Shown piece by piece: positions 1 through 12,527 of a stretch of DNA of 64,000 nt. Source of the DNA: Kiritimatiellia bacterium. Lineage in GTDB: Bacteria; Verrucomicrobiota; Kiritimatiellia; RFP12; UBA1067. The notes beneath the pieces are model-generated. The model made no database searches. It had not been told where the DNA came from and saw only the letters and a program-made list of their open reading frames with translations. How positions within the stretch are numbered: the first letter of the stretch is position 1; every line of letters starts with the position of its first letter. The stretch covers positions 16,031 to 80,030 of the forward strand of contig JAGCVN010000042.1 in assembly GCA_017962315.1 (NCBI GenBank), read 5' to 3'. Both the position numbers and the translations under genes were made by a program.

Positions 1-1038
1 GGCCTCGGCCAGCGCGTGGTTGCGGATTTTCGACCGCCCGGAAAGCACTTTCTCGACCGTGAGCCCGCGGGGCAGGCCGCCCGGCGACGTAATTTCCACG
101 CGCGTGTCGTACACGGCGACGAAGATCGGCGCGTCATGTTCGAAATAGTTGCGATGAGTAAAGGCGTTGACCACGAGTTCGCGCAAGGCGTCCGGGGGAA
201 GTTCGTAGAGGTCCCTTCGCTGGATGCCCTCGAACACGCAGCCCATGTTGATCTTGGACAGGATGTACTTGTGCGCATCCTCGATCTGCTCGTAGATAGG
301 GCCGGTGAATTCGCGGCGGTCAACGAACACGGCCTTCGAATCCCCCTTGAACACGCCGCACTTCACGCGTGTCGCAAACGCCCTGTCGCCTGTCAGCAGC
401 GCATACGTGTTGGACGCAATCCAGCAGTTCCGCGACTTGGAAATGATGCCCCATTCCTGGAGTTGATTTGCCGTAATCTTCTTGACCGCTTTGCGCTCCG
501 ATTCGTCTCTCGCGTTTCTGCGCGCAATGCGATACATGTTGGCGCATAGCGCGGCGATGCGGGCATCGGTGATCTTCGCGTTTGGGCAGGGTTCGCTGTC
601 AAAACTTCGGCCTTCGGCCTCCAGTTCCAGTTCGTGTCGTGTTGCATCGTCGGCGCGTTGAGTCGTGGCGCCTACGCGGACATAGACCCCATCCTTGTCG
701 CCCTCCGCCTTGATGAAATACGGACATCGCGAACCTGCAAGCACGTCAAGGACGATGACCGATTTGCCATCCACATTCTCGATGCCGATATCGATCGGAA
801 CATGCGGCGAACAGGCGTTGCAGATGGAATTCGCTATGCCATCCATTTCCACGAACACCCTTGACTTGCCGATTCCGGTCACCGATCCATCGTTCGCAAT
901 GCCGAAAAGGACCGTGCCTCCCTTCCCATTCGCGAATGCGACCACCGTCTTCAAATACCTGATTCGCTCTTCGTTGGGCACGCGCTTGAATTCAAGATCA
1001 TACCCCTCACCTTGCCTGATTGCCTCGCGAATGTCCAT
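1..1038 (-). CDS. AlbA_2/Schlafen-like divergent AAA domain plus HATPase_c_4 (RecG-C-terminal-like) ATP-binding protein; N-terminal ~346 aa, C-terminus runs off the window start
   Basis: Minus-strand ATG at 1038, 3 nt after the stop of the upstream gene. My hand translation MDIREAIRQGEGYDLEFKRVPNEERIRYLKTVVAFANGKGGTVLFGIANDGSVTGIGK... matches the divergent-AAA 'FANxxGGxxxxGV' signature; open to position 1. The + strand ORF 16..549 is the GC-driven shadow of this gene. Confidence 0.6.
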   Translation of the reverse strand, partial: MDIREAIRQGEGYDLEFKRVPNEERIRYLKTVVAFANGKGGTVLFGIANDGSVTGIGKSRVFVEMDGIANSICNACSPHVPIDIGIENVDGKSVIVLDVLAGSRCPYFIKAEGDKDGVYVRVGATTQRADDATRHELELEAEGRSFDSEPCPNAKITDARIAALCANMYRIARRNARDESERKAVKKITANQLQEWGIISKSRNCWIASNTYALLTGDRAFATRVKCGVFKGDSKAVFVDRREFTGPIYEQIEDAHKYILSKINMGCVFEGIQRRDLYELPPDALRELVVNAFTHRNYFEHDAPIFVAVYDTRVEITSPGGLPRGLTVEKVLSGRSKIRNHALAEA

Positions 1039-1040
1039 AA

Positions 1041-2180
1041 CTACTGCCCCTCTTTCTTGCGGTTTCGCTTTTCCTGATTCATTTTGATTAGGTCGGCGTA
1101 GCGGAACGGCTCCTTGTGCGTCCAGTCCATGATGCTGCAGTAGAGGCCGTTGTGAAGGAAAATGCCGTCGAGGGGCTTCTTGAACTTGCAGCCGTGACAG
1201 GGCCTTGTCAAGGGAAGTTCCTTTTCGGGCTTAGCCAAAGACGTTTCGGGTTCTCCAAACAATTCCATTTGCACGGGCTTCGGCCGGGGCGGATCGAAGG
1301 GTTCGTCATGGCAGGTCATGGGGACGACGCATTTCAGGCCGTCCATCTGCCAGATATTCCAGCTGATGATGTCGGCAAGTTCCAGAAGCGTCTCGTGGTC
1401 CAGCGGTTCCGCCGTGCAGTAGAACTTGTAGTATTCCAGCATCGTGTAGAGGATGTTCTCGCGGGCGATGAGCAGATTGTCGCCCTGCCACTCGAAGCCG
1501 AGCGTGGCCTTAAGGGCGAGAAGGGCGTATTTCAGCCATTCGTCCGGTTTCGTGCCGACGTTCTCCGTGACGATGCGGAGCTTCCGGTCAAGGATGCCGA
1601 TGCGATTCGGCACTGGGATGACCTCGCCCGTGGTCGTATCGTAGCGGCTCACCAGAAACGGCCCCTCGCCGCAGCACATCTCCAGACAGCGGTATTTGAC
1701 GTAGTCCAGCCACGTGTGTTCCGGCGTGTCCGGGAACTCCACCTTGCCGGGGAAGCGCTTCCAGCCCTCGTCGCGGCTTCCCTCCGTGGTGAAGGGCGCC
1801 GGCTTGCGGTCGAACCAGGCGGCGTCGAACTCGTTAATCATGTTGTTGCATATCCACGACGGCGTGAAGACCTCCGCCTTCTTTTGGATGCGCTCCTTCT
1901 GCTCGGCCTTGCTCTTGTCCACGCGGGGACGGATGATCTTGTTTCCCGGACGGGAGATTACGTCGGCGTCGATCTCGTCCTGCATACACATCTTCTTGTC
2001 GAAAACAGATTCAAGGTGCTCATACCCATCTGTCATCCACATGATGTTCTTGCCGGTCGTCCGATCAGCAAGAAGGATGTCGAGGACATCGCGCGGAATA
2101 TCCGATTCAAGGATGTCCCGCGTGAAATCCGGGATTATCACATCGCGCGCAAGGGCGTTATCTGTCGGACGGTCGCTCAT
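1041..2180 (-). CDS. methyltransferase-like protein (gamma-class motif X 'EVFTPSWICNNM' and motif I 'LEMCCGEGPFLV' present, no NPPY/F motif IV; C-terminal Cys/His cluster CHGCKFKK...H..C)
   Basis: 379-aa ORF; the motifs were read from the translation. Stop is 3 nt before the next gene and the start abuts the 34-aa uORF, so it is operonic. Family identity not resolved. Confidence 0.45.
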   Translation of the reverse strand: MSDRPTDNALARDVIIPDFTRDILESDIPRDVLDILLADRTTGKNIMWMTDGYEHLESVFDKKMCMQDEIDADVISRPGNKIIRPRVDKSKAEQKERIQKKAEVFTPSWICNNMINEFDAAWFDRKPAPFTTEGSRDEGWKRFPGKVEFPDTPEHTWLDYVKYRCLEMCCGEGPFLVSRYDTTTGEVIPVPNRIGILDRKLRIVTENVGTKPDEWLKYALLALKATLGFEWQGDNLLIARENILYTMLEYYKFYCTAEPLDHETLLELADIISWNIWQMDGLKCVVPMTCHDEPFDPPRPKPVQMELFGEPETSLAKPEKELPLTRPCHGCKFKKPLDGIFLHNGLYCSIMDWTHKEPFRYADLIKMNQEKRNRKKEGQ

Positions 2181-2285
2181 TCACTTTGCCTTTTCGCCGC
2201 TGTCAAATAGACCTGCTTCTTCCCTGTTGTTCTGCAAAACGCGGTGAATCAGTTCGTCATGAACCTCGTCAAGTCGTATTCTCAT
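2181..2285 (-). CDS. 34-aa leading ORF MRIRLDEVHDELIHRVLQNNREEAGLFDSGEKAK; N-terminus resembles a ribbon-helix-helix beta-strand plus helix A
   Basis: Reverse complement of 2181..2285 translates cleanly. Its TGA is immediately followed by the ATG of the 1041..2180 gene. GAGGAAGG lies about 12 nt upstream. Too short for a confident call. Confidence 0.3.
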   Translation of the reverse strand: MRIRLDEVHDELIHRVLQNNREEAGLFDSGEKAK

Positions 2286-2304
2286 TTGTATTCCACGCCT
2301 TCCT

Positions 2305-2336
2305 CAAAATCCTCCGGCCCGTTTCCGGGCCGGAGG
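2305..2336 (-). terminator. GC-rich hairpin (11-bp stem CCTCCGGCCCG / CGGGCCGGAGG, GAAA loop) followed on the minus strand by AUUUUG; intrinsic-terminator-like or attenuator element
   Basis: Seen directly in sequence. Located between the predicted minus-strand promoter at 2422-2450 and the uORF start at 2285. Confidence 0.35.
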
Positions 2337-2415
2337 GCGGATCACACCCTAGACAAAGTTTCAACCCCCATGAAGAAGCAGGTTTCGCAATGTGCAAAAC
2401 CATATTCTCCACAAC
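2305..2415 (-). ncRNA. candidate ~110-nt small RNA delimited by the sigma70-like promoter and the terminator-like hairpin (alternatively a structured 5' leader of the cassette)
   Basis: Promoter and terminator geometry. The internal imperfect hairpin GGUUUUGC-ACAUU-GCGAAACC plus the terminal hairpin would give a two-stem RNA. No homology claim. Confidence 0.2.
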
Positions 2416-2421
2416 GGAGAT

Positions 2422-2450
2422 ATAATATCAAAATGCCGCCACTATGTCAA
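2422..2450 (-). promoter_or_regulatory. sigma70-like promoter TTGACA-N17-TATTAT on the minus strand
   Basis: Perfect -35 hexamer, 17-nt spacer, 5/6 -10 match, in an AT-rich patch between the cas7 stop and the cassette. Confidence 0.4.
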
Positions 2451-2558: not shown

Positions 2559-3464
2559 TTACTTCACGACAACCGTGACACCAGCTGGCAGGGCGCCATC
2601 GGCCGGAACGTCCAACGTGTAGTCAGCGAACTTGCGGGGGACGGCGACGTCGGACTTCTTCTCAATCTTGACGAGGTCGAAGAGCTTGTGGGAGGGGGCG
2701 TTGCCGAGGGCGGAATCGTGCTTGAAGACGATGAGCTTCTGCGTCGCCATCATCCCGCGGGCGGCGGAATGATCCTGATCGAACATCCCGACGAGTGCCT
2801 CCCACAGGAGCGCGAGGTCCTCTTCCGAGAAGCCAGTCTGCTTGGCGAGCGCCGGGGAGACGAAGCCGTAGGCGACGTAAAGGCCGTAGGGAACGGTGTT
2901 CTTGCGGCCCATGGTGCGGTTGTCACCGCTCTGCTTCTCGGCTTCGGCCTCAGTCGCAACGGCCATGCGGGTAATGGAGTGCTCTGCTGTGACAACGGGA
3001 TCGACGGATCGGGCGAACGTGATCTGGACGGGACCGCGAACCTGTCCGGCATTGGCCCCTGTGGACATAACCGCACCAAATGTCCGGATGTCGAAGTAGA
3101 CCTGGCACATCTTGTTGCGGGCTCGGAAGACTTCTTCCCCCTGTCCCTGTCCGGTCTTGTTACGCTTCTTCCCATCGGCATCCGCCTTCGACAGGTCGAT
3201 TCCAAGGTCTGCGTACGCCTTCTCGATCTGCTGGTTGAGGATCGCCTTCTCCTTGACGAAGATGTCGTAACCGGGTTCCGTACCCTTAATGAGTAGGACG
3301 TAGTTGCGTACCTTGCGCTTGATGCAGACATCGGTGACGAGGCCTTCGCCCGTCTCAGTGTCGATGCGGGGGAGATTTCCGGCGTCGGGGTCGCCGTTGG
3401 GGTTGCCGTCCTTCACGTCAAAGAGAAGCATGAAGTCGTAGCGGTTCTTGAGTTCAGTAGCCAT
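2559..3464 (-). CDS. cas7: type I-C CRISPR-associated Cas7 (Csd2)
   Basis: [35 protein letters not shown]... is the characteristic Csd2/Cas7c N-terminal signature; 301 aa. Confidence 0.92.
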
Positions 3465-3494
3465 GGTGGGGTCTCCTTGTTCGTTGGTTAGTGA

Positions 3495-5261
3495 TCAGAG
3501 TGAAAGTTCTGTTTGAACGGTATCGTCGGATTCGGATGTCGACGCAGCATCGCCGACGCCGCTGTCCTTGGTTTTCCTGCCGACGAAGAAATCCTGCCGC
3601 TGGTGGTAGTAGCCGATGGCGAACATACCCTGGTCTTCCAGCGAAAGATGGGAGGGGAAGGCGGCGACGCTGGAAAGGATTTCGCCGATGAGCTCCTCGA
3701 AGAACGCTGTTTTCGGGAGCTTGGCGAGATGGTGGTTCTTGAGCCGCATCAGGTTGCCAAAGACGGCGGCCGGCGTGGCGGATGCCGAGGCGTAGAACCT
3801 GTCGCGGATGGTAGCGTTGATGCCGGGGTTGGCGGCCTGCTGGATGCGCTCCAGAACGGCGAAGAGTCGGCCAAGACGATAGCCGACATTGGGGTTGTCC
3901 TTGTCGAGACTCATGGCGAGTTTCCTTTCGGGGTTGAGGTTGCGGTTTATGAAAGCCTTGACGAGCTTGGCGCGAGGGTAAGTGACATCGCGTTCCGCCT
4001 TGATGCGGACAATGGCCGACGAAAGCAAGGTCGCGGGATAGGGCGTTCCTTCAAGGATGCTCCGCATGACGGCGCCGGCGAGATTGGGAGGAATGTTCGC
4101 TTTCCACTTTTGGTAGTCTTTGTTATGGAGCGCAAGCGAAAGCAGCAACTGCGTAAGGGAAAGATGCTCCTTGTCCTTTGGGCCATGGACGATGCGGAGG
4201 TTTTCGAACCAGTCCGCAAAGCGCCTCTCCATTTCCGCGACCGTCCCCTCGTGCCAAAAGCGGACGGAAATGCGCGCGGAATTGGGCGAGAGACCGAGAA
4301 CATAGAAGCGCGCGGTGCCGCCTTCGTGGGCATAGGCACCCGACCGAACGGAACCGAGGAGTCGCTCCACGGCATCAACGCCGCGATCGGGGTCGTCCTT
4401 CTGGGGTTCGCGGAAAAGGTCCGCAAATTCATCTTCAAGGGTACTCTTCTCCGAAGACCAGAAGACGGTCGTGGCATCGCCGACATACATCTTTTGCCGG
4501 GAACTAGCCAAAAGCGCATTGAGTGCTGTGGTATAGGCGAACTCGGCTTCTTGACCAACTGGAGAATTGTAGCTTTGCTCCCTCCCGAACGATTCCGCTG
4601 CATCCCAGTTGAATGAAATGAGACTTCCTCGGTTTTTATCGGTTCCCAATACGCCAACTATTTTGTGATGAGTTCGTGAAATGATAGCCCGGCTTCCCGT
4701 CACCAGACACACACCATCGGGGACTTCCCCAGTTGATGACAAATGCGCATTGTACGCTTGAACAAAGTCTCCTTCGCAAGGAACGGGTTTCTCATGTCCT
4801 GCAATTATGAAAGTAGCAACAGCCCCTGTCTGGATGTACTCAGACCAATTGCCGTCACCCTTCAATCGCTCCGTATCAAAATGTTCTGTCAAGAATCGTC
4901 GAACGGATGCGACGGAAGGTAGGTCGTCAGCAAACTGGTTGAGACGGGTCAAAAATAGTGTATGCTTTTTGTCTGCATCTGTTCCTTGCGCAACGCCTGG
5001 AAAAGCATACTCCGCTTTGTCCCAGAGAGTAAATGCGGCCGGATTTCTTGTGCGGACGACAGATTGAGGCACAAGAAATCGTTTCGCGATCTTTCTCTTG
5101 CCGACAATTTCGCGAGTATCCTCAATTCTTACGAATTGTCCGTCATCCGTTATGACGAACAAAAAAGGAATCTCCTTCCATTCCCACCCGAGCGGGGCGA
5201 TGCCAGAATCGGGGTCAGCGGCCTTGCGGTCGTAGTATTCCTTGAGAGCCTGGAGAATCAT
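3495..5261 (-). CDS. cas8c: type I-C CRISPR-associated Cas8c (Csd1) large subunit
   Basis: N-terminus MILQALKEYYDRKAAD... typical of Csd1; 588 aa. Its start overlaps the cas5 stop (ATGA). Confidence 0.9.
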   Translation of the reverse strand: MILQALKEYYDRKAADPDSGIAPLGWEWKEIPFLFVITDDGQFVRIEDTREIVGKRKIAKRFLVPQSVVRTRNPAAFTLWDKAEYAFPGVAQGTDADKKHTLFLTRLNQFADDLPSVASVRRFLTEHFDTERLKGDGNWSEYIQTGAVATFIIAGHEKPVPCEGDFVQAYNAHLSSTGEVPDGVCLVTGSRAIISRTHHKIVGVLGTDKNRGSLISFNWDAAESFGREQSYNSPVGQEAEFAYTTALNALLASSRQKMYVGDATTVFWSSEKSTLEDEFADLFREPQKDDPDRGVDAVERLLGSVRSGAYAHEGGTARFYVLGLSPNSARISVRFWHEGTVAEMERRFADWFENLRIVHGPKDKEHLSLTQLLLSLALHNKDYQKWKANIPPNLAGAVMRSILEGTPYPATLLSSAIVRIKAERDVTYPRAKLVKAFINRNLNPERKLAMSLDKDNPNVGYRLGRLFAVLERIQQAANPGINATIRDRFYASASATPAAVFGNLMRLKNHHLAKLPKTAFFEELIGEILSSVAAFPSHLSLEDQGMFAIGYYHQRQDFFVGRKTKDSGVGDAASTSESDDTVQTELSL

Positions 5262-6067
5262 TTGAAAACCTCCTCGGAGTCGGGATGCGGGACGATGATG
5301 ACGCCATCGACCATTTTGGGTCGGTAGAACATGGGCTTGATGTCCTTCAGATCGGAATAGTCCATGTCGTAGAGCATGAAGCCGAGGTCGCGCGTCTCGG
5401 AAATGGGGCGGTCCGGTTCCGCCTCGGGGTGCTTCACGAGGCGGATTTCCCGGCAGGAGAACTCGCGGCAGCCGAGGTAGGGGTGCATGAAATACTGGCC
5501 CTTGGTGGCGCGGCGGTCGAACATGGCGGCGTATTTCGCCTCCTTCTCGTCGGGCTTCGCCTCGGCTTGGCGGTATAACTCCACCTCATCGGCGTCGGCC
5601 AGCCATTCCGGGGGCGGATTGACGGCCGGGGAACGCTCCTCGGGCGGAATGAAGTCGAACTCGGCGTAGAGCCTGTAGCGGACATCGCGCAGAATGAGTC
5701 CTGCGCGCTGCTGGCGTGCGTCCTCTACAAAAATGCCATCCGAACGCGGGCTGGCGACGGCGGACACCTCGTTGCGGCGGACGGAGGTCCAGCGAATCGG
5801 GTTCATCACCTCGATCCGCGTGATGCGCCAGCGGATGGCGGGCTTCCAGAAGATCGCGCTGAAGACGCCGCGTGCGGCGGACGGCGTGATGACGTCGTAG
5901 CTCACGCGCTCGACCTTCATCTCGGGCCGCGTGAAGCAGGCGAAGTCGCTTGAAACGTCTAGGCAGAATCCTTGCCTATAAGTTCGATTGGCGACAACCG
6001 AAACAACTTGTAAAGACAGCATCCTTCTTTCGCCGCGCAACGGCGCGGCGTTTTCATAACCGCGCAT
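5258..6067 (-). CDS. cas5: type I-C Cas5 (Cas5d, pre-crRNA-processing subunit); start uncertain (ATG at 6067 or 6022; the ORF track extends to a TTG at 6088)
   Basis: ...DFACFTRPEMKVERVSYDVITPSAARGVFSAIFWKPAIRW... matches the Cas5d core (GDYACFTRPE...SY.V.TPSAARGI). The 4-nt overlap with cas8c is typical. Confidence 0.85.
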   Translation of the reverse strand: MRGYENAAPLRGERRMLSLQVVSVVANRTYRQGFCLDVSSDFACFTRPEMKVERVSYDVITPSAARGVFSAIFWKPAIRWRITRIEVMNPIRWTSVRRNEVSAVASPRSDGIFVEDARQQRAGLILRDVRYRLYAEFDFIPPEERSPAVNPPPEWLADADEVELYRQAEAKPDEKEAKYAAMFDRRATKGQYFMHPYLGCREFSCREIRLVKHPEAEPDRPISETRDLGFMLYDMDYSDLKDIKPMFYRPKMVDGVIIVPHPDSEEVFK

Positions 6068-6090
6068 GGTTGTGCGCGGAAGAAGCAAAC

Positions 6091-6160
6091 GTTGTTTTCA
6101 AGTTGTTCAAGTTGTTTTCAGAAACTTACCCTCATCTACATTCCCGCGTGCAGCGCGGGC
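6091..6160. promoter_or_regulatory. cas3-cas5 intergenic element: triple tandem direct repeat GTTGTTTTCAA-GTTGTTCAA-GTTGTTTTCAG followed by hairpin CCCGCG-TGCAG-CGCGGG
   Basis: Seen directly in the 101-nt gap between the cas3 stop (6190) and the cas5 start. Candidate operator or internal promoter region for cas5-cas8c-cas7. Confidence 0.3.
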
Positions 6161-6189
6161 GGGGGCTTTCATGTGGGTCCTTTCGTTGT

Positions 6190-7710
6190 TCAAATGATGT
6201 TGTCCTCTATGGAGAGGCCGTCGCGAAACAAATCAAGGCCGAAACGTTCGCTGTAGGCGGACGGCATCGTCTGGACGAAGATGCCGGATGGAATGTCGGG
6301 CTTTTTGGGGACGCAAAGTTCCTCGACAAGGCCCTTTTCAATCAATTCGGCGAGCTTTTTCTTTGGGACATTCACGGTGAAGCGCTGTAGACGGCGCATA
6401 ATGTCGCGTTTCGGTCCTGCGGCGCGAAGCGATGCGATGAGAGCGTCGCTGCCTCCATAGCGGACGATGACGGCGGCCTGTGCCGAGTCGTCGATCATCT
6501 GGAAGGCTGCGGCGGCCTCGCGGAACTGGTAATGCATGGGTTCCGCGATTCTTCGCGTCGTCCCGTTGCGGAATTCCAGCGGTACGGGTACGCCAAGCCA
6601 CGACTCGAATTCGACGCCGAGATTTTGGATTCGATGGTGCAACGCCCGGAAATAGTCGGGGAAACTGCTTACTTCATCGGGATCGACGCCTCCGGGACGG
6701 TCTAGGAGGTCGCTCATGGCGTATTCCCCCTGGAGCAATTCACCCTTGGGGGATTGCTCCGGCGGCATGAAAACGATGACGCGACCCGGCTCCGGCAGAA
6801 GCCCTTCCCGGTTACACCGTCCAGCAGACTGCGCGATGGAGGCGAGACCCGTGAACGCACGATAGACCACGGGAAAGTCGATGTCCACCCCGGCCTCGAC
6901 AAGCTGGGTGCTGATTACGCGGACGGGTTCGCCGTCCGCCAGCTTGCGTTTGATTTCGCCGATGACGCGCGAGCGGTGGGCGCCGCACATGCTTGCGGAG
7001 AGATGGATGGTGTCTTCCGGCATTTTGTCAAAGAGGGCGCGGCAGTCGCGGCGCGTGTTTACGACGCAGAGGACACGCTCGTGGCCGCACAATTCCGCGG
7101 CGATCTCGTCCCACGTTTTCCGGGTGTTTCGATCAACTGGGAATTCGATGCGTACCCTTTTCAGCCGATGGTACAGGTCAAGGGACGGAGGGGCGATTTC
7201 CCGTATCGAGGCCGTATCAATGCCGGGGAGGTTCAACTGGGTGGCCGTTGAAAGGACGAACGAAACCCTGTAGTGAGATGCGAGCTGTCGCATCGCCTCG
7301 GCGCATGGGAGGAGAAGCTTGGAGGGCAGCAACTGCACCTCGTCAAGGATCACGACGCTTTCGGCGATGTTGTGGAGCTTGCGGCACCGGCTCGACTTGC
7401 AGGCGTACAGGGACTCGAAGAACTGGACGGACGTCGTGACAATGACCGGCGCGTCCCAGTTCTCGGAGGCGAGGCGAGACTGTCTCGTCTCCTTGTCGGG
7501 ATCGAAGTTAGAATGGTGCTCCAGCACATTGTCCGGGCCAAGGATGTCGCGTAGAACATCGGCCGTCTGCTCGATGATGGACGTGTAGGGAATCACGTAG
7601 ATGATGCGCTTGAGTCCATGGCGCAAGGCGTGTCGGAACGCGAACGCCGTTCCCGAAAGCGTCTTTCCCCCGCCCGTCGGGACGGTCAGCGAAAAGAGGC
7701 CTGGCGGCAA
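6190..7710 (-). CDS. cas3: Cas3 helicase part (SF2 helicase; Walker A 'PTGGGKT', DEVQ box); TTG-initiated ORF lying in frame 23 codons downstream of the HD-domain ORF
   Basis: MPPGLFSLTVPTGGGKT...VVILDEVQLLP...; 506 aa. Continuous reading frame with 7780..8445 except for one TGA. Confidence 0.85.
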   Translation of the reverse strand: MPPGLFSLTVPTGGGKTLSGTAFAFRHALRHGLKRIIYVIPYTSIIEQTADVLRDILGPDNVLEHHSNFDPDKETRQSRLASENWDAPVIVTTSVQFFESLYACKSSRCRKLHNIAESVVILDEVQLLPSKLLLPCAEAMRQLASHYRVSFVLSTATQLNLPGIDTASIREIAPPSLDLYHRLKRVRIEFPVDRNTRKTWDEIAAELCGHERVLCVVNTRRDCRALFDKMPEDTIHLSASMCGAHRSRVIGEIKRKLADGEPVRVISTQLVEAGVDIDFPVVYRAFTGLASIAQSAGRCNREGLLPEPGRVIVFMPPEQSPKGELLQGEYAMSDLLDRPGGVDPDEVSSFPDYFRALHHRIQNLGVEFESWLGVPVPLEFRNGTTRRIAEPMHYQFREAAAAFQMIDDSAQAAVIVRYGGSDALIASLRAAGPKRDIMRRLQRFTVNVPKKKLAELIEKGLVEELCVPKKPDIPSGIFVQTMPSAYSERFGLDLFRDGLSIEDNII

Positions 7711-7779
7711 TTCCGCCGCCTGTTCGCAGGCGGCGCGGATTCCCGCGCGGATGCGGTTTACGTCGGTGTCCGGGGCGGT

Positions 7780-8445
7780 TCACTGTTTTTCGTCCAGATG
7801 CGCGAAGAACGCATCGGCAAGGGCGGAAAGTGGCTGTCCGAAGGAGCGGTTTGCGCTTTGCGCCGGATCCATGAACGCCTCCGTGTCGAGAAAGTCGGCA
7901 TCGACGAGACTCGAGTACATCATGCGAATCCAGAACGACAGAGAAGAGTCGTCGCGGCCGAACGGGAAAGGCGGTGCTAGCCGTTCGCGGAGCCAGTCGG
8001 CCTCATGGGACGCGATCCACTCGCGAACGGGTGGTTCCGCCAAAACGGCAGCGTCCTCATTCAGCCGAACGGCAAGAGCGCCATTTGGCGTGTCCCCGCC
8101 GGACCAGTCGGGGAGGCCGGCATGGTGGCCGGCGATGCAGTAGGACAGAGCCGTGCCAATGCCGCCGGCATTTTGGGCCAGCCAGCACGCCCCCGCACCG
8201 GAATGCGAATGGTCGCCAAAGTCCAGATCGGCATCCTCGACGCCGTTGCAGCGGCGCAAATAGGACTGGAACGCGCTCCTCGCCTTTCCTGTGTCATGCG
8301 TTTCGCCTTCCAGCCGTCCATGTTTGCCACTTGCAAATGAATCGGCAAACGCTTCTGACAATTCAGCGACAGCCTTACTATGAGATCGCAAGGTCTGCCA
8401 TTCTGTCATCGGTGCGTTTTCTCGGCTATGAGCAAAAAAATCCAT
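7780..8445 (-). CDS. cas3: Cas3 HD nuclease domain part (HD-phosphohydrolase motifs H..HD..H..H..D)
   Basis: FFAHS...ETHDTGKA...GDHSHSG...AGHHAGLPD...LVDADFL; 221 aa, ending at a TGA that is in frame with the helicase ORF. Confidence 0.8.
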   Translation of the reverse strand: MDFFAHSRENAPMTEWQTLRSHSKAVAELSEAFADSFASGKHGRLEGETHDTGKARSAFQSYLRRCNGVEDADLDFGDHSHSGAGACWLAQNAGGIGTALSYCIAGHHAGLPDWSGGDTPNGALAVRLNEDAAVLAEPPVREWIASHEADWLRERLAPPFPFGRDDSSLSFWIRMMYSSLVDADFLDTEAFMDPAQSANRSFGQPLSALADAFFAHLDEKQ

Positions 8446-8618: not shown

Positions 8619-9680
8619 ATGTTTCCGAAGGGTGATTTCAAAGTTGGCGAGAGGATTCGCGCTTGGCGCAAAAAGCGCAATATGATCCAGAAAGAGCTTG
8701 CCGCAGCGATCGGAATGGATGTTACGCAGCTGTGGTCGATCGAAAAGGATCGCAACAGTCCGTCCGTGCGCACGCTTGAACGCATTGCGCGGGCGTTACG
8801 TGTTCGTGTCCCGGAACTTCTAGAGCTACCGTCCGTGGATGATTCGATGGGGGTACTTTCTGTGTCGGACAACAGCTGGTCCGCCTGTTTGAACGTGGAA
8901 TGCGATGATTTACGTCGGCTATCCAGACCTGAACAGGGAACCGACCTTGCAGAAGGAGAGGTGCGCAGATTACTTTCAGAGTTGTCGGAAGCGATTCAAA
9001 CTGAGACGAAGCATCAGACGGAGATGCAGACCTCGCTCCCGCTTCAGTTTCCGATCGTCAAGAGCGAGGCCGGGGCGGAGCAGCTTGCACGAGCGGTCAG
9101 GGCGCACTGCGATATCGGCTCTGCCATTATTCGTGACGTGCAGATCCTTTTCGAAACATACGGGGTACGTGTTCTTGACACGCGATTTTCGAACGGGGTT
9201 GAGGCCGTGACGTTCTACAGCGCGATCCAACGAAACTTTACGGTTTTCCTTTCCGCCACTCTTTTGCAGAAACCATGGCGGAGGGATTTCATATTCCTGT
9301 CCGAAATCGGGCGGATGTTCCTATTTGTTTCCGGCTTGTTTGAAACCTATCGGGAATCCAAAATCGGTCGTCGTTTCGTGCATCACTTTGCCGCGGCTTT
9401 CTTGCAACCGGAACAGACGATTCGTGCGACGGTTTACAGCCTTCGCGTGAAACCGGACGACTGGACATACGAGCTTCTGTTGCGCATGAAAGAACGCTTT
9501 GGGGTATCGGCCGAGGCATTCGCGATACGATTGAAGGAACTGGCTCTTATCTCCCGGCGTAAGTTCGAAGTGTTCAAAAAGCAGATCATACAATACTACG
9601 CATCTCACAACTACGATGAACCCATGGCAAAAGAGCGCAGACCCGGTAGGGCATTTGACCTCGCCGCGCTCTCAACATGA
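8619..9680 (+). CDS. XRE-family HTH transcriptional regulator with C-terminal ImmA/IrrE-like (COG2856/DUF955-type) domain; no clean HExxH seen
   Basis: N-terminal IRAWRKKRNMIQKELAAAIGMDVTQLWSIEKDRNSPSVRTLERIARAL is a canonical XRE HTH. The C-terminal ~230 aa has the architecture of ImmA-type anti-repressor peptidases, but the metal motif looks degenerate (RFVHHFAAAF). Confidence 0.55.
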   Translation: MFPKGDFKVGERIRAWRKKRNMIQKELAAAIGMDVTQLWSIEKDRNSPSVRTLERIARALRVRVPELLELPSVDDSMGVLSVSDNSWSACLNVECDDLRRLSRPEQGTDLAEGEVRRLLSELSEAIQTETKHQTEMQTSLPLQFPIVKSEAGAEQLARAVRAHCDIGSAIIRDVQILFETYGVRVLDTRFSNGVEAVTFYSAIQRNFTVFLSATLLQKPWRRDFIFLSEIGRMFLFVSGLFETYRESKIGRRFVHHFAAAFLQPEQTIRATVYSLRVKPDDWTYELLLRMKERFGVSAEAFAIRLKELALISRRKFEVFKKQIIQYYASHNYDEPMAKERRPGRAFDLAALST

Positions 9681-10252: not shown

Positions 10253-11275
10253 CTAGAACGCGGAGATGACCAGCTGGTTCGTGGTGTAGTGGCTGGTTTC
10301 TTTCTGGATGGCGAGCTTCCAGGCGGCGACGTCGAGATAATCCTGCCAACCATGACTCCATTCCAGTTCCGTTCCGATGAAGAGATGGAGGGGGACGAGG
10401 AGCTGGTCGGCGAGGTGCTTTTCGCACGCTTTGCCGGATTTCACGAAGTCGCGGATTTGGCGGACGACCTCATTTGCCACGGACTTGCGCGACTTGCCGT
10501 ATGTGCCGATGGCGGAGATGACGATCGTCGCACGCTCGTAACGGAGCCGCGTGCAACAGTAGTTTCCCGGTCCAAAGGCATCGACCTCACGCACAATGCG
10601 TTCCAGAGCGAGGTCACGCATCTGATTACCAACGATGCCGACTTCCGCCTCGGCAATCGAACGCGGAATGTGCGAGACAACGCCCTCGACGGTGCCACCT
10701 AGGTATGCGCCGAGGTCGGTCAAATCGTAGCACGCAGGGCACTTCGACTCGTCGTACGGCCAGACACGCAGTTTCACGACGCCGCCAGCGGCGGGGTAGA
10801 AACCGCACTGCTCCAGTTCCGCCTCCACGTGCGCGCCCATCCGCCGTAGTTCGGGAAGGTACGTTTCCGAGAAAAACTCCCAGATCGGCGCGAACGAGAC
10901 GTGCGTGCCACCCGTGATCGTGACCGTGGACGGCGTGTCCGCCCGCAGGAGGACGGGGATGACCGTCTGCGCGACGAGCGTGACGGAACCAGCCGTGCCG
11001 ATGTCGAACTGGTAGGTACCACCCTTGATTGCGCCCGGCTTGAACAAAAGACGCATGGAGCCGACCTCGTCGCCCTCCACCTGCGCACTGCAGATCTGCG
11101 CGACCGCACGAACGCATGTGAGGTGTTGGCGCTTGAGGCCGGGCTTGTCGCGTTTCACGCGGATGTTCAGCATCTCGAATGGTTTGCCGTAGGCGGCGCT
11201 CAACGCGAGCGAGGTGCGGAGGATCTGCCCGCCACCCTCGCCCTGCGAGCCGTCGATGGTGATTGGATTATCCAT
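10253..11275 (-). CDS. rtcA: RNA 3'-terminal phosphate cyclase RtcA
   Basis: MDNPITIDGSQGEGGGQILRTSLALSAAYGKPF... is the RtcA N-terminal signature; 340 aa. Confidence 0.9.
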   Translation of the reverse strand: MDNPITIDGSQGEGGGQILRTSLALSAAYGKPFEMLNIRVKRDKPGLKRQHLTCVRAVAQICSAQVEGDEVGSMRLLFKPGAIKGGTYQFDIGTAGSVTLVAQTVIPVLLRADTPSTVTITGGTHVSFAPIWEFFSETYLPELRRMGAHVEAELEQCGFYPAAGGVVKLRVWPYDESKCPACYDLTDLGAYLGGTVEGVVSHIPRSIAEAEVGIVGNQMRDLALERIVREVDAFGPGNYCCTRLRYERATIVISAIGTYGKSRKSVANEVVRQIRDFVKSGKACEKHLADQLLVPLHLFIGTELEWSHGWQDYLDVAAWKLAIQKETSHYTTNQLVISAF

Positions 11276-11321
11276 TCTCGCTTCCTTTCTTGCGCGGACG
11301 AAAACGCCCGCGTACAGGACA

Positions 11322-12527
11322 CTATCCCTTCAGCGAGGCGAGGGGGACGAGGCGAACGAGCGGCTCAACGAGGTCGAGCTCGGAGGCGATCACGTCCTCG
11401 ATGTCCTTGTACGCCTGCGGTGCCTCGGAGAGATCGAGTCGGCCCTTCGCCTTGCCGAAGCCCTTGTACTTGTGCCACCGCTCGCACACGATGCCCTCCA
11501 TCGCCTTGTCGCACTCCTCCACGGTGAGCGTGGTGGAGGCCGCGATGCGGCTCATGCGCCGCCCCGCGCCGTGCGAGCAGGACATGAACGACTCGGGGTT
11601 GCCGAGTCCGCGCACGATGTACGAGGCCGTGCCCATCGATCCTGGGATGATGCCGATCTCGTCGAGCTTCGCCGAGGTCGCGCCCTTGCGGTGCACGCAC
11701 ACCTTCTCGCCGAAGTGCTCCTCGAACACGGCGTAGTTGTGGTGGATGTCGATCGTGCGAATGAAGTTCGCGTTCGACACGAACTCGGCGAGCGTCGCCT
11801 TCATCACCTCCATCATGCGCCGACGGTTCTCCTTCGCGTAGCGGAGGGCGAAGAGCATGTCGGTGAAGTAATCGTGTCCCGCCGGCTCCTCAATGGGGAG
11901 GAAGGCGAGATCCGTGTCCGGCAACGGTACGCGGAACCGCTCGCACATCTTCGCCGCGATACGGTGGTAGTGCTCCTCGATACGCTTGCCGAGGTTGCGT
12001 GAGCCGGAGTGGATCATGAGCCACACCCGGTTTTTGTCGCTCTTCTGCAGCTCGATGAAGTGGTTGCCGCCGCCGAGTGTGCCGAGATTCATGCGGTCGA
12101 GCTTGGACGGCCAGAGGCTGGAGCGCATGCCGTTGTGCGCGGTGTATTCCTCGAAGCCCTCCCAGTCCTGCGTGACGCGGTGCGACTCGCCCTCCCCCAC
12201 GGGGATGCGCTCCTTGAGCTTCTCCTGGAAGGCGCGGCGGAACGGCATCTCGGCGAACGCCTCGGCGGGGACGTCCGTTTCCGTGGCGATCATGCCGCAG
12301 CCGATGTCCACACCGACGGCGGCGGGGATCACGGCGTCTTTCGCCGCCACCACGCCACCGATGGGCATGCCGTAGCCCTGGTGCGCGTCTGGCATTAACG
12401 CCACATGGTGTACAAGCACCGGATGGTGCGCGAGGTTCACCGCTTGCTGGACGGCACCCTCCTCGCAGTTCTCACACCAGCTCTTCACGGGCATCGTGTA
12501 CCCGACCTCAAACTTTTCCCATTTCAT
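11322..12527 (-). CDS. rtcB: RNA-splicing ligase RtcB
   Basis: MKWEKFEVGYTMPVKSW...GGGNHFIELQ...HSGSRNLG conserved RtcB blocks; 401 aa. Confidence 0.92.
   Translation of the reverse strand: MKWEKFEVGYTMPVKSWCENCEEGAVQQAVNLAHHPVLVHHVALMPDAHQGYGMPIGGVVAAKDAVIPAAVGVDIGCGMIATETDVPAEAFAEMPFRRAFQEKLKERIPVGEGESHRVTQDWEGFEEYTAHNGMRSSLWPSKLDRMNLGTLGGGNHFIELQKSDKNRVWLMIHSGSRNLGKRIEEHYHRIAAKMCERFRVPLPDTDLAFLPIEEPAGHDYFTDMLFALRYAKENRRRMMEVMKATLAEFVSNANFIRTIDIHHNYAVFEEHFGEKVCVHRKGATSAKLDEIGIIPGSMGTASYIVRGLGNPESFMSCSHGAGRRMSRIAASTTLTVEECDKAMEGIVCERWHKYKGFGKAKGRLDLSEAPQAYKDIEDVIASELDLVEPLVRLVPLASLKG

What the first reader, a model, noticed from the sequence alone, without database searches (positions are those of the whole stretch)
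1041..2180. Methyltransferase-fold protein with motifs X and I but no catalytic motif IV, plus a C-terminal zinc-ribbon-like Cys/His cluster
EVFTPSWICNNMINE fits gamma-class N6-methyltransferase motif X (TP motif). LEMCCGEGPFLV fits motif I (ExxCGxGxFL). No NPPY/F/W tetrapeptide follows. The C-terminus has CHGCKFKK...H...C. It could be an inactive SAM/DNA-binding module, an unrecognised methyltransferase class, or a nuclease-associated domain. Its operonic pairing with a Schlafen/AlbA_2 ATPase next to cas7 is unusual.
Basis: partly seen in the sequence, partly recalled or inferred. Interest (0 to 1): 0.55.

Follow-up and report, generated by a model that had tools for sequence, protein, structure and literature searches.

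The report
Stand-alone SAM-binding half of a methyltransferase
This gene encodes only the cofactor-binding half of a DNA adenine methyltransferase. It is the conserved first gene of a widespread helicase-nuclease restriction system whose large subunit carries the catalytic half, so databases that call it a complete methylase are misleading.

Summary
The 379-aa ORF (window 1041-2180, minus strand) has methyltransferase motifs X, I, II and III and a CCHC zinc cluster. It has no motif IV and no catalytic lobe.

It is not an orphan oddity. It belongs to a family of at least 2,300 clusters at 50% identity. PADLOC lists the family as 'MTase_II', and NCBI names it 'restriction endonuclease subunit M'.

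Its conserved partner is neither the AlbA_2 gene nor cas7. It is a 1,300-1,400-aa protein with four parts: a GIY-YIG/T5orf172-like nuclease, an SF2 helicase, a second atypical N-lobe (N'), and an NPPY catalytic lobe with a target-recognition domain (TRD). In this contig that gene starts about 0.5 kb beyond the window edge. The AlbA_2 gene is a lineage-specific insertion between the two.

In relatives the same domain is fused directly in front of 'FDxVIGNPPYQ'. An AlphaFold model of that fusion matches complete gamma-class adenine methyltransferases (CamA, E = 4e-14).

All 140 surveyed systems with a half-lobe keep NPPY. A sister clade has no half-lobe gene; it carries a C5-cytosine methylase gene instead, and its motif IV Asn is usually G, A or V.

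Best reading: a trans-acting SAM-binding lobe needed for m6A methylation by the large subunit. I rate it a new variant of a known kind, with moderate to high interest.

The parts
1041..2180 (-). ORF of 379 aa: a stand-alone N-lobe (SAM-binding half) of a gamma-class N6-adenine DNA methyltransferase, here called 'Nfam'
   Evidence: PADLOC PDLC03390 matches full length at E = 3e-95; there is no Pfam or NCBIfam hit. AlphaFold2 model: pLDDT 85.7, pTM 0.86.
1830..1883 (-). Motif X region (residues 100-117, KKAEVFTPSWICNNMINE)
   Evidence: Invariant E-V-F-T-P, W and C. Aligns with GEVFTPPW of the small half-methylases.
1638..1688 (-). Strand beta1 plus motif I (residues 165-181, CLEMCCGEGPFLVSRYD). 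The pattern is E-x-C-x-G-x-G, as in CamA D-x-S-x-G-x-G.
   Evidence: CamA motif roles are taken from PMC8187626.
1476..1505 (-). Strand beta2 plus motif II (residues 226-235, TLGFEWQGDN). E230 is the candidate ribose-binding acid.
   Evidence: YGx[DE] is present in 112 of 118 half-lobes.
1335..1361 (-). Strand beta3 plus motif III (residues 274-282, WNIWQMDGL). D280 is the candidate adenine-N6-binding acid.
1101..1199 (-). CCHC zinc-ribbon-like insert (C328, C331, H343, C348) plus a beta-hairpin (residues 349-360). In fused relatives this segment sits between motif III and motif IV.
   Evidence: It is optional across the wider family.
1..1038 (-). First 346 codons of a 512-aa SLFN/AlbA_2 + HATPase_c_4 + HTH protein. 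It is a lineage-specific insertion between the half-methylase gene and its large partner, with start and stop codons nearly abutting on both sides.
2422..2450 (-). Sigma-70-like promoter candidate (TTGACA-17-TATTAT with TG, 11 of 12 positions) between the cas7 stop codon and this operon
   Evidence: This is a consensus match only.

Best explanation
SHOWN. The ORF encodes only the N-terminal, SAM-binding lobe of a gamma-class N6-adenine DNA methyltransferase: motifs X, I, II and III, with a zinc-ribbon insert. It lacks the catalytic lobe. It is the conserved first gene of a restriction-modification system. In this contig the large subunit lies just beyond the window edge. That subunit joins a GIY-YIG/T5orf172-like nuclease, an SF2 helicase, a second atypical N-lobe (N', with Lys in place of the first Gly of motif I), and the single NPPY catalytic lobe plus target-recognition domain. 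The domain layout resembles Type ISP enzymes. Every architecture seen holds two N-lobes and one catalytic lobe.

INFERRED. The small protein binds SAM. It docks in trans on the large subunit's catalytic lobe and completes the active site for protective m6A methylation of host DNA. In fused relatives it does this in cis. N' then serves mainly as a structural coupler to the motor-nuclease. Unmethylated foreign DNA would be recognised by the TRD and cut after ATP-driven translocation.
For: (1) Motifs and homology.
- The invariant residues are listed under the observation check.
- hhalign against 208-248-aa 'N-6 DNA methylase' proteins gives probability 98.3% and E = 2e-14, spanning motif X to motif III.
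- Those proteins match only the first ~120 positions of Pfam N6_Mtase and MmeI_Mtase.

(2) Fusions.
- About 40 of 147 cluster representatives carry the same domain followed directly by 'MKFDxVIGNPPYQ', a C-lobe and a TRD.
- The AlphaFold2 model of one fusion (pLDDT 86.3, pTM 0.84) matches complete gamma-class methyltransferases over about 700 columns: CamA E = 3.7e-14, then M.BseCI, BrxX/PglX, M.TaqI, MmeI and BpuSI.
- The stand-alone model gives only weak hits to the same enzymes.

(3) Partnership.
- In 78 of 80 genome loci picked by this protein, a helicase-nuclease core gene follows on the same strand; in 73 the gap is at most 150 bp.
- In the reverse direction, 59 of 66 informative metagenome loci picked by the helicase core start with an N-lobe-only gene.

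(4) The two-to-one rule. Where the half-lobe is fused to the C-lobe, the helicase protein ends in N' and has no C-lobe (L014, L034, L074).

(5) Motif census.
- None of 118 half-lobes has motif IV. They carry a canonical GxG motif I and the acids of motifs II and III.
- 102 of 106 N' lobes have Lys at the first Gly of motif I, and they have no conserved motif II acid.

(6) Natural experiment.
- All 140 loci with a half-lobe, whether a separate gene or a fusion, have NPPY.
- A sister clade lacks the half-lobe and has a C5-cytosine methylase gene in the same upstream slot, in 7 independent contexts.
- Its motif IV reads GPPF, GPPY, APPY, APPF or VPPF in at least 93 of the 120 closest homologues listed; about ten further unscored sequences show similar variants.
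- So the catalytic Asn is under selection only when the half-lobe is present, while N' is kept either way.

(7) The invariant residues are the same in stand-alone and fused forms.
Against: - No biochemical data exist. SAM binding and complex formation are inferred.
- The link from N' to the catalytic lobe is short (about 10-30 aa) and looks like an ordinary cis beta3-to-beta4 connection. N' plus the C-lobe could therefore be a complete enzyme, with the small protein acting only as an activator.
- Lys in motif I has not been shown to block SAM binding.
- Three members of the C5-methylase clade keep NPPY; one of them was confirmed in context. The link between half-lobe and NPPY is therefore about selection, not an absolute rule.
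- One genome locus (L047) has the half-lobe gene without a detectable helicase partner.
- Stand-alone structure matches to known methyltransferases are weak (E >= 0.3).
- A profile comparison of this family with N' aligned only motix X... corrected: only motif X (E = 0.003).
- The T5orf172 nuclease assignment for this contig's own large protein rests on homology to relatives, not on a direct Pfam hit.
Confidence: 0.55

Rival explanations
1. Activator or sensor model. N' plus the NPPY lobe of the large subunit is a complete methyltransferase. The small protein is a SAM-binding accessory subunit that recruits, loads or allosterically switches it on, or reports SAM levels to the motor-nuclease. 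It does not form the active site. This would be comparable to the co-factors needed by the methyltransferase in the MANTIS system.
For: - The N'-to-C-lobe linker is short and looks like a cis connection.
- In three-gene systems N' stays attached to the C-lobe, not to the helicase.
- Precedent exists for methyltransferases that need accessory proteins (MANTIS preprint 10.64898/2026.09.23.753747).
- The dependence on an intact NPPY fits this model as well.
Against: - In fused relatives the half-lobe is the only N-lobe in the NPPY-bearing protein, and the model folds as a normal methyltransferase.
- N' has Lys at the first Gly of motif I and lacks the motif II acid, whereas the half-lobe keeps every SAM-contact motif.
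- The invariant residues are the same in fused and free forms.
Confidence: 0.3
2. Decaying remnant. The small gene is the leftover 5' half of a second, once complete companion methylase, as in Eco57I-type systems with R-M plus M. It has no present function.
For: - Architectures with the C-lobe attached to either N-lobe would fit an ancestor with two full methylases.
- An IS256 insertion splits one such gene in a Bifidobacterium longum plasmid.
Against: - There are at least 2,334 clusters at 50% identity, with intact ORFs across many phyla.
- More than 60 residues are invariant.
- The stop and start codons abut or overlap those of the partner gene.
- No locus with two complete methylases was seen.
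- The gene is lost exactly in the clade where NPPY decays.
Confidence: 0.04
3. A self-sufficient methyltransferase of an unrecognised class with a non-canonical catalytic motif (for example WQGDN or DEPF), as the REBASE/PADLOC label 'Type II methyltransferase' implies.
For: - PADLOC MTase_II PDLC03390 matches at E = 3e-95.
- NCBI names the family 'restriction endonuclease subunit M'.
Against: - There is no [DNS]PP[YFW] motif, and DEPF is not conserved.
- WQGDN maps to motif II of canonical half-lobes (YGIELLPDN).
- The model shows only strands beta1 to beta3 of the Rossmann sheet, followed by the zinc ribbon.
- There is no TRD.
- Fused relatives supply a canonical NPPY lobe.
Confidence: 0.03
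4. A module that works with the AlbA_2/Schlafen ATPase or with the neighbouring type I-C Cascade genes.
For: - The gene is next to cas7, and its stop codon nearly abuts the AlbA_2 start codon.
- The same three-gene order occurs in a second Kiritimatiellia MAG.
Against: - AlbA_2 is absent in about 75 of 80 genome loci and in the metagenome loci.
- cas genes are adjacent only in this contig type.
- A promoter-like site lies between cas7 and this gene.
Confidence: 0.03

Closest known systems
Type ISP restriction-modification enzymes (LlaGI, LlaBIII)
   Same: The large partner has the same domain order: nuclease, SF2 helicase-like ATPase, gamma-class N6-adenine methyltransferase with NPPY, then a TRD. 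The models give weak to moderate fold matches to the LlaGI and LlaBIII methyltransferase regions. The Type ISP authors already noted related enzymes with helicase subunits and GIY-YIG nucleases (PMC3553950).
   Different: Type ISP enzymes are single, self-sufficient polypeptides with an Mrr-family nuclease. Here the nuclease is GIY-YIG/T5orf172-like. The methyltransferase N-lobe next to NPPY is atypical (Lys in motif I). A separate canonical N-lobe protein is nearly always encoded upstream. There is no sequence-level match to PDB entries.
Gamma-class N6-adenine DNA methyltransferases (M.TaqI, CamA, M.BseCI, PglX/BrxX, MmeI)
   Same: The motif order X-I-II-III and the motif chemistry are the same: E-x-C-x-G-x-G, an acid at the end of beta2, and an Asp after beta3. 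The fused relatives model as this fold.
   Different: The window protein stops after motif III. It has no motifs IV to VIII and no TRD, so it cannot be a complete enzyme.
DnmA-YeeB-YeeC cluster of Bacillus subtilis and Vibrio (MmeI-like methylase + SF2 helicase + T5orf172 protein)
   Same: It has the same three activities in one operon and is found in defence islands (PMC9973331).
   Different: DnmA is a complete methylase that works alone in vitro. The nuclease and helicase are separate proteins in a different order. No half-methylase gene is described there.
Naturally split or accessory-dependent methyltransferases (M.AquI and M.EcoHK31I two-subunit C5 methylases; METTL3-METTL14; Trm112-activated methylases)
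   Same: The idea is the same: a methyltransferase activity needs two polypeptides, or an active subunit pairs with a non-catalytic methylase-like subunit. This comparison rests on my own knowledge and was not tested here.
   Different: Those are C5-cytosine or RNA/protein methylases with other split points or full-length pseudo-subunits. A split of a gamma-class adenine methylase between motifs III and IV, with a second in-cis pseudo-lobe, was not found in the literature searched.
Eco57I-type Type IIG systems (bifunctional R-M enzyme plus a separate M)
   Same: A small 'M' gene sits next to a large R-M fusion. PADLOC files the two genes as MTase_II and REase_MTase_IIG.
   Different: M.Eco57I is a complete methylase, whereas this 'M' is half of one. 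The large protein here also has a helicase motor.

Membership tests
Complete gamma-class N6-adenine DNA methyltransferase | Motif X (TP-containing helix before motif I) | tested here: met
   EVFTPSW at residues 103-109 is invariant and aligns with GEVFTPPW of N6_Mtase-type halves.
Complete gamma-class N6-adenine DNA methyltransferase | Motif I, [DE]-x-small-x-G-x-G after strand beta1 | tested here: met
   E167-M-C-C-G171-E-G173.
Complete gamma-class N6-adenine DNA methyltransferase | Acidic residues of motifs II and III (ribose and adenine contacts) | tested here: met
   E230 at the end of beta2 and D280 after beta3, both invariant or nearly so. Their roles are taken from CamA. Actual SAM binding was not tested.
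Complete gamma-class N6-adenine DNA methyltransferase | Catalytic motif IV, (D/N/S)PP(Y/F/W) | tested here: not met
   The motif is absent from the protein, and 0 of 118 half-lobes have it.
Complete gamma-class N6-adenine DNA methyltransferase | Motifs V to VIII (strands beta4 to beta7) and a target-recognition domain | tested here: not met
   The protein ends after the zinc ribbon and hairpin. The model has only beta1 to beta3 of the sheet. In relatives these parts lie in the fused or separate C-lobe.
PADLOC MTase_II PDLC03390 / NCBI 'restriction endonuclease subunit M' protein family | Full-length profile match | tested here: met
   E = 3.4e-95 over residues 19-366 against profile positions 3-324 of 327. 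Homologues carry the NCBI name.
N-lobe-only half-methylase component of GIY-YIG-helicase-methylase systems (class defined here) | Motifs X to III without motif IV, encoded directly upstream of the helicase-nuclease / NPPY-lobe gene or genes | tested here: met
   In the same contig the large partner follows after the AlbA_2 insertion. The pattern holds in 78 of 80 and 59 of 66 surveyed loci.
Type ISP restriction-modification enzyme (for the system as a whole) | Single polypeptide with an Mrr nuclease, SF2 ATPase, gamma-class methylase and TRD that is self-sufficient | tested here: not met
   The helicase (ResIII) and NPPY methylase are present in the partner. The nuclease region relates to T5orf172/GIY-YIG, not Mrr, and an extra subunit is conserved. 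Self-sufficiency is not testable here.
CRISPR-Cas type I-C accessory gene | Conserved association with cas genes | tested here: not met
   cas genes flank the gene only in L001 and L002. They are absent from the other surveyed neighbourhoods.

The most novel reading that the evidence does not exclude
Lobe-exchange switch. The single catalytic lobe and TRD can dock either of two N-lobes. One is the free, canonical, SAM-loaded lobe (this protein), which gives methylation. The other is the Lys-type pseudo-lobe tethered to the helicase-nuclease, which allows target recognition without methyl transfer and licenses translocation and cleavage. The decision between modification and restriction would then be set by the occupancy and SAM loading of a separate subunit. 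This would be a new control principle for restriction enzymes and a possible built-in sensor of phage SAM-degrading enzymes.
Probability: 0.15. Interest if true: 0.8.

Novelty: new variant of a known kind. Interest (0 to 1): 0.6.

Why it matters
Thousands of genes labelled 'restriction endonuclease subunit M' or 'Type II methyltransferase' would in fact be half-enzymes.

A widespread helicase-driven restriction family would depend on a methyltransferase split between its cofactor-binding and catalytic lobes. It would also carry an extra pseudo-lobe.

This gives a natural, testable case of how modification and restriction are coupled. It explains a sister clade that keeps a dead adenine-methylase module only for DNA recognition and hands protection to a C5 methylase. 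It also affects methylome-to-gene assignment in REBASE-style pipelines and defence-system annotation.

Tried and rejected
- Pfam and NCBIfam scans of the ORF gave nothing useful. PHROGs gave one weak hit of unknown function.
- Sequence and profile searches of the PDB gave nothing for the ORF, for the 523-aa partner methylase or for the large protein.
- hhalign of this family against the N' lobes aligned only motif X (E = 0.003) or nothing. Homology of the two lobe types is therefore not shown by sequence profiles. The link to methyltransferases was made instead through the small N6_Mtase-type halves and the fused model.
- I first took the big protein's 'ILDLAAKMGEFA' for an ordinary motif I. 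The census showed that the Lys is a conserved peculiarity.
- I first read the half-lobe/NPPY association as absolute. A control look-up found an NPPY-retaining member of the C5-methylase clade, so the claim was weakened to 'the Asn is under selection only with the half-lobe'.
- A viral-contig scan gave only 9 loci, which were not analysed.
- No CRISPR array or tandem repeats of that kind were found in the window. The lone repeat-like 18-mer is single-copy.
- There is no Rfam match in the cas7-to-ORF spacer.
- Five literature searches found no description of a half-methylase in such systems.
Full report
**Observation**

The ORF at window 1041-2180 (minus strand) encodes 379 aa.
- EVFTPSWICNNMINE at residues 103-117
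- LEMCCGEGPFLV at residues 166-177
- CHGCKFKK at residues 328-335

It has no (D/N/S)PP(Y/F/W) tetrapeptide. Pfam and NCBIfam do not recognise it. PADLOC's REBASE-derived model 'MTase_II' PDLC03390 matches it end to end (E = 3.4e-95).

The family is large. More than 8,000 sequence clusters at 90% identity share words with it, and some are named 'restriction endonuclease subunit M' by NCBI. An exhaustive profile search found 2,334 clusters at 50% identity.

An alignment of 25 members shows invariant residues in motifs X and I. It also shows them in YG(F/Y)(E/D)WQGDN, in WN(I/L)WQMDG and in a C...CxxC...H...C cluster.

**What the domain is**

Three lines of evidence converge.

1. *Homology to small half-methylases.* In related systems the same operon position holds 208-248-aa proteins annotated 'N-6 DNA methylase'. 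They read GEVFTPPW / FLEPACGSGNFL / YGIELL / HGDAM and then stop. They match only positions 22-120 of 311 in Pfam N6_Mtase and 20-118 of 259 in MmeI_Mtase. A profile-profile comparison of the target family with them gives probability 98.3% and E = 2e-14 over 130 columns, from motif X to motif III. On that alignment the target has:
   - E167 as the motif I acid, in the pattern E-x-C-x-G-x-G
   - E230 as the motif II acid
   - D280 as the motif III acid

   In CamA these three acids hold the amino group, the ribose and the adenine of the cofactor (PMC8187626).

2. *Fusions.* About 40 of 147 cluster representatives are 650-710-aa proteins. In them the same domain, with or without the zinc ribbon, is followed within about ten residues by 'MKFDxVIGNPPYQ', the rest of an Eco57I-type catalytic lobe and a TRD.

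3. *Structure models.* An AlphaFold2 model of one such fusion (pLDDT 86.3, pTM 0.84) matches complete gamma-class adenine methyltransferases over about 700 alignment columns. The hits are CamA at E = 3.7e-14, then M.BseCI, BrxX/PglX, M.TaqI, MmeI and BpuSI. The model of the window protein alone (pLDDT 85.7) has only three Rossmann strands followed by the zinc ribbon. It gives only weak hits (E >= 0.3) to the same enzymes.

The protein is therefore the N-lobe (cofactor-binding half) of a methyltransferase. It is not a new class of complete enzyme.

**Surroundings**

The window is part of an 88.8-kb metagenome scaffold (L001).

Upstream on the same strand lie type I-C cas genes: a split cas3, cas5d, cas8c and cas7. 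There is no cas4, cas1 or cas2, and no array in the window.

Downstream the genes run in this order:
1. An AlbA_2 + HATPase_c_4 + HTH gene, cut by the window edge.
2. A 1,375-aa ResIII + Eco57I protein that matches PADLOC 'REase_MTase_IIG' PDLC03626 full length. It carries KIVTPPNIAYDMV, ILDLAAKMGEFA and VISNPPYQ.
3. Lamassu (LmuA, LmuB).
4. Shedu.

A strong promoter-like site lies between cas7 and the ORF.

**The conserved partner**

In other genomes the half-lobe gene is followed directly by the large helicase-methylase gene, often with overlapping stop and start codons, and with no AlbA_2 gene between.

| Survey | Loci | Result |
|---|---|---|
| Genome loci picked by the half-lobe, from many phyla | 80 | 78 have the helicase-nuclease core gene downstream on the same strand; 73 within 150 bp |
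| Metagenome loci picked by the helicase-nuclease core | 66 informative | 59 begin with an N-lobe-only gene |

Among those 59, 21 are of the expanded type found here and precede a fused large protein. The other 38 are of the small type and precede a ~520-aa methylase and a ~840-aa helicase-nuclease.

The AlbA_2 insertion recurs only in one related Kiritimatiellia MAG (87% identity).

The N-terminus of the helicase proteins passes the Pfam thresholds for T5orf172/MUG113 in relatives. One homologue carries that family in the precomputed annotation, and NCBI calls another 'GIY-YIG nuclease family protein'. For this contig's own protein the nuclease assignment rests on homology only.

**Two N-lobes and one C-lobe**

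The large protein has its own N-lobe (N') in front of NPPY. Three architectures occur:
- Where the half-lobe is free, the partner is core-N'-C-lobe-TRD, or N'-C-lobe-TRD plus a separate core.
- Where the half-lobe is fused to the C-lobe, the helicase protein still ends in N' but has no C-lobe (L014, L034, L074).

The two lobe types are sharply different:

| Feature | Half-lobes (118) | N' lobes (106) |
|---|---|---|
| Motif I | canonical GxG | Lys at the first Gly in 102 |
| Motif II acid | present in 112 | not conserved |
| Motif III | present in 114 | not scored; different in sequence |
| Motif IV | 0 | follows N' in these RM or M proteins |

The invariant residues of the half-lobe are the same in free and fused forms.

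**A natural experiment**

- All 140 surveyed loci with a half-lobe, free or fused, have NPPY.
- The only two complete large genes without a half-lobe gene upstream have VPPF and GPPY instead, and a C5-cytosine methylase gene in the upstream slot.
- These two belong to a large sister clade. Among the 120 closest homologues listed for one of them, at least 93 read GPPF, GPPY, APPY, APPF or VPPF, and about ten further unscored sequences show similar variants.
- Five further contexts all show a C5 methylase abutting the large gene and no half-lobe.
- One of those five retains NPPY. The statement is therefore that the catalytic Asn is under purifying selection only where the half-lobe is present.
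- A control member with canonical NPPYQ has a half-lobe gene upstream that is 42% identical to the target.
- N' is retained in both clades.

This ties the half-lobe to methyl transfer by the C-lobe. It does not tie it to restriction or to general assembly.

**Mechanism**

Shown: the identity of the protein as an N-lobe, its obligate partnership, the two-to-one lobe rule, and the link to an intact NPPY.

Inferred: the protein binds SAM and completes or activates the catalytic lobe in trans, giving protective m6A. N' couples the recognition module to the motor-nuclease. Restriction would then proceed as in Type ISP enzymes.

The main rival is that N' plus the C-lobe is already a complete enzyme and the small protein is an activator or SAM sensor. 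The short N'-to-C-lobe linker favours that view. The fusions and the degenerate cofactor motifs of N' favour trans-completion.

**Comparison with what is known**

- Type ISP enzymes share the domain order but are self-sufficient single chains with an Mrr nuclease. Their authors noted relatives with helicases and GIY-YIG nucleases without describing them.
- DnmA-YeeB-YeeC is an analogous methylase + helicase + T5orf172 cluster with a complete methylase.
- MANTIS shows that defence methylases can need accessory proteins.

I found no description of a half-methylase subunit in five literature searches. The search library is incomplete, so prior description cannot be excluded.

The databases split the system into three models without noting that the first two are halves:
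- PDLC03390, the N half
- PDLC03375, the C half plus TRD
- PDLC03626, the large fusion

**Verdict**

The finding is a new variant of a known kind of system, a helicase-driven restriction-modification system. It is of moderate to high interest to specialists because it implies a naturally split adenine methyltransferase and widespread misannotation.

Noticed in passing
window 2559-8445 (minus strand): A type I-C cas operon: cas7 at 2559-3464, cas8c at 3495-5261 and cas5d at 5258-6088. cas3 is split into a helicase ORF (6190-7710) and an HD ORF (7780-8445). There is no cas4, cas1 or cas2, and no CRISPR array anywhere in the 64-kb window.
   Followed up: partly
window 2285-2450 (minus strand): Between cas7 and the half-methylase gene lies a promoter-like site (2450-2422). 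It is followed by a strongly structured ~130-nt stretch (folding z-score -4.5). That stretch contains a single I-C-repeat-like end 'GGGGGTTGAAAC' (2358-2375) and an 11-bp GC hairpin with a short U run (2311-2336). There is no Rfam match, and the hairpin recurs only in identical contigs. It could be a small RNA, a degenerate repeat or a Cas-regulating RNA, or simply a terminator.
   Followed up: partly
L114, L116, L190-L196: A sister clade of the large helicase-methylase proteins has motif IV changed to GPPF, GPPY, APPY, APPF or VPPF. It has a C5-cytosine methylase gene directly upstream and no half-lobe gene. The adenine-methylase module seems to be kept only for DNA recognition. Three members keep NPPY followed by an altered segment (NPPYNF...).
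   Followed up: yes
L001 15330-15800 and the N' regions of 106 partner proteins: The N-lobe that sits in cis before NPPY has an almost invariant Lys where the first Gly of motif I is expected (DPxxKSGVF, LDIASKxGEF, LEINSKSGLY). It has no conserved motif II acid. Whether it still binds SAM is unknown.
   Followed up: partly
L001 16812-20967 (outside the window, same contig): Lamassu (LmuA with a Cap4 nuclease domain, and LmuB) and Shedu (SduA) genes follow the restriction system. Together with Cascade they form a dense defence island.
   Followed up: partly
window 1-1038 (minus strand); L017 9751-11211: An AlbA_2/Schlafen + HATPase_c_4 + HTH gene is wedged between the half-lobe gene and the large gene, with start and stop codons abutting or overlapping. 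This occurs in two related lineages only (87% identity). Its role in the operon is unknown.
   Followed up: partly
L096 (Bifidobacterium longum plasmid NZ_CP065398.1): An IS256 insertion separates the N half, annotated 'restriction endonuclease subunit M', from the C half, annotated 'Eco57I ... methylase domain-containing protein', in what looks like a once-fused gene. PADLOC model PDLC03375 (348 positions) likewise covers only the C half plus TRD.
   Followed up: partly
window 8619-9680 (plus strand) and 10253-12527 (minus strand): An HTH_XRE protein with a faint Peptidase_M78 (ImmA/IrrE-like) hit lies divergent from cas3, next to RtcA and RtcB RNA-repair genes.
   Followed up: no
M proteins of three-gene systems, e.g. 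L009 1640-3211 and L098 4440-6020: The complete partner methylases carry their own Cys/His insert (H.W..GKCxxCGA...HAY.FIH) between motif III and NPPY. This is the same topological place as the zinc ribbon of the half-lobe.
   Followed up: no
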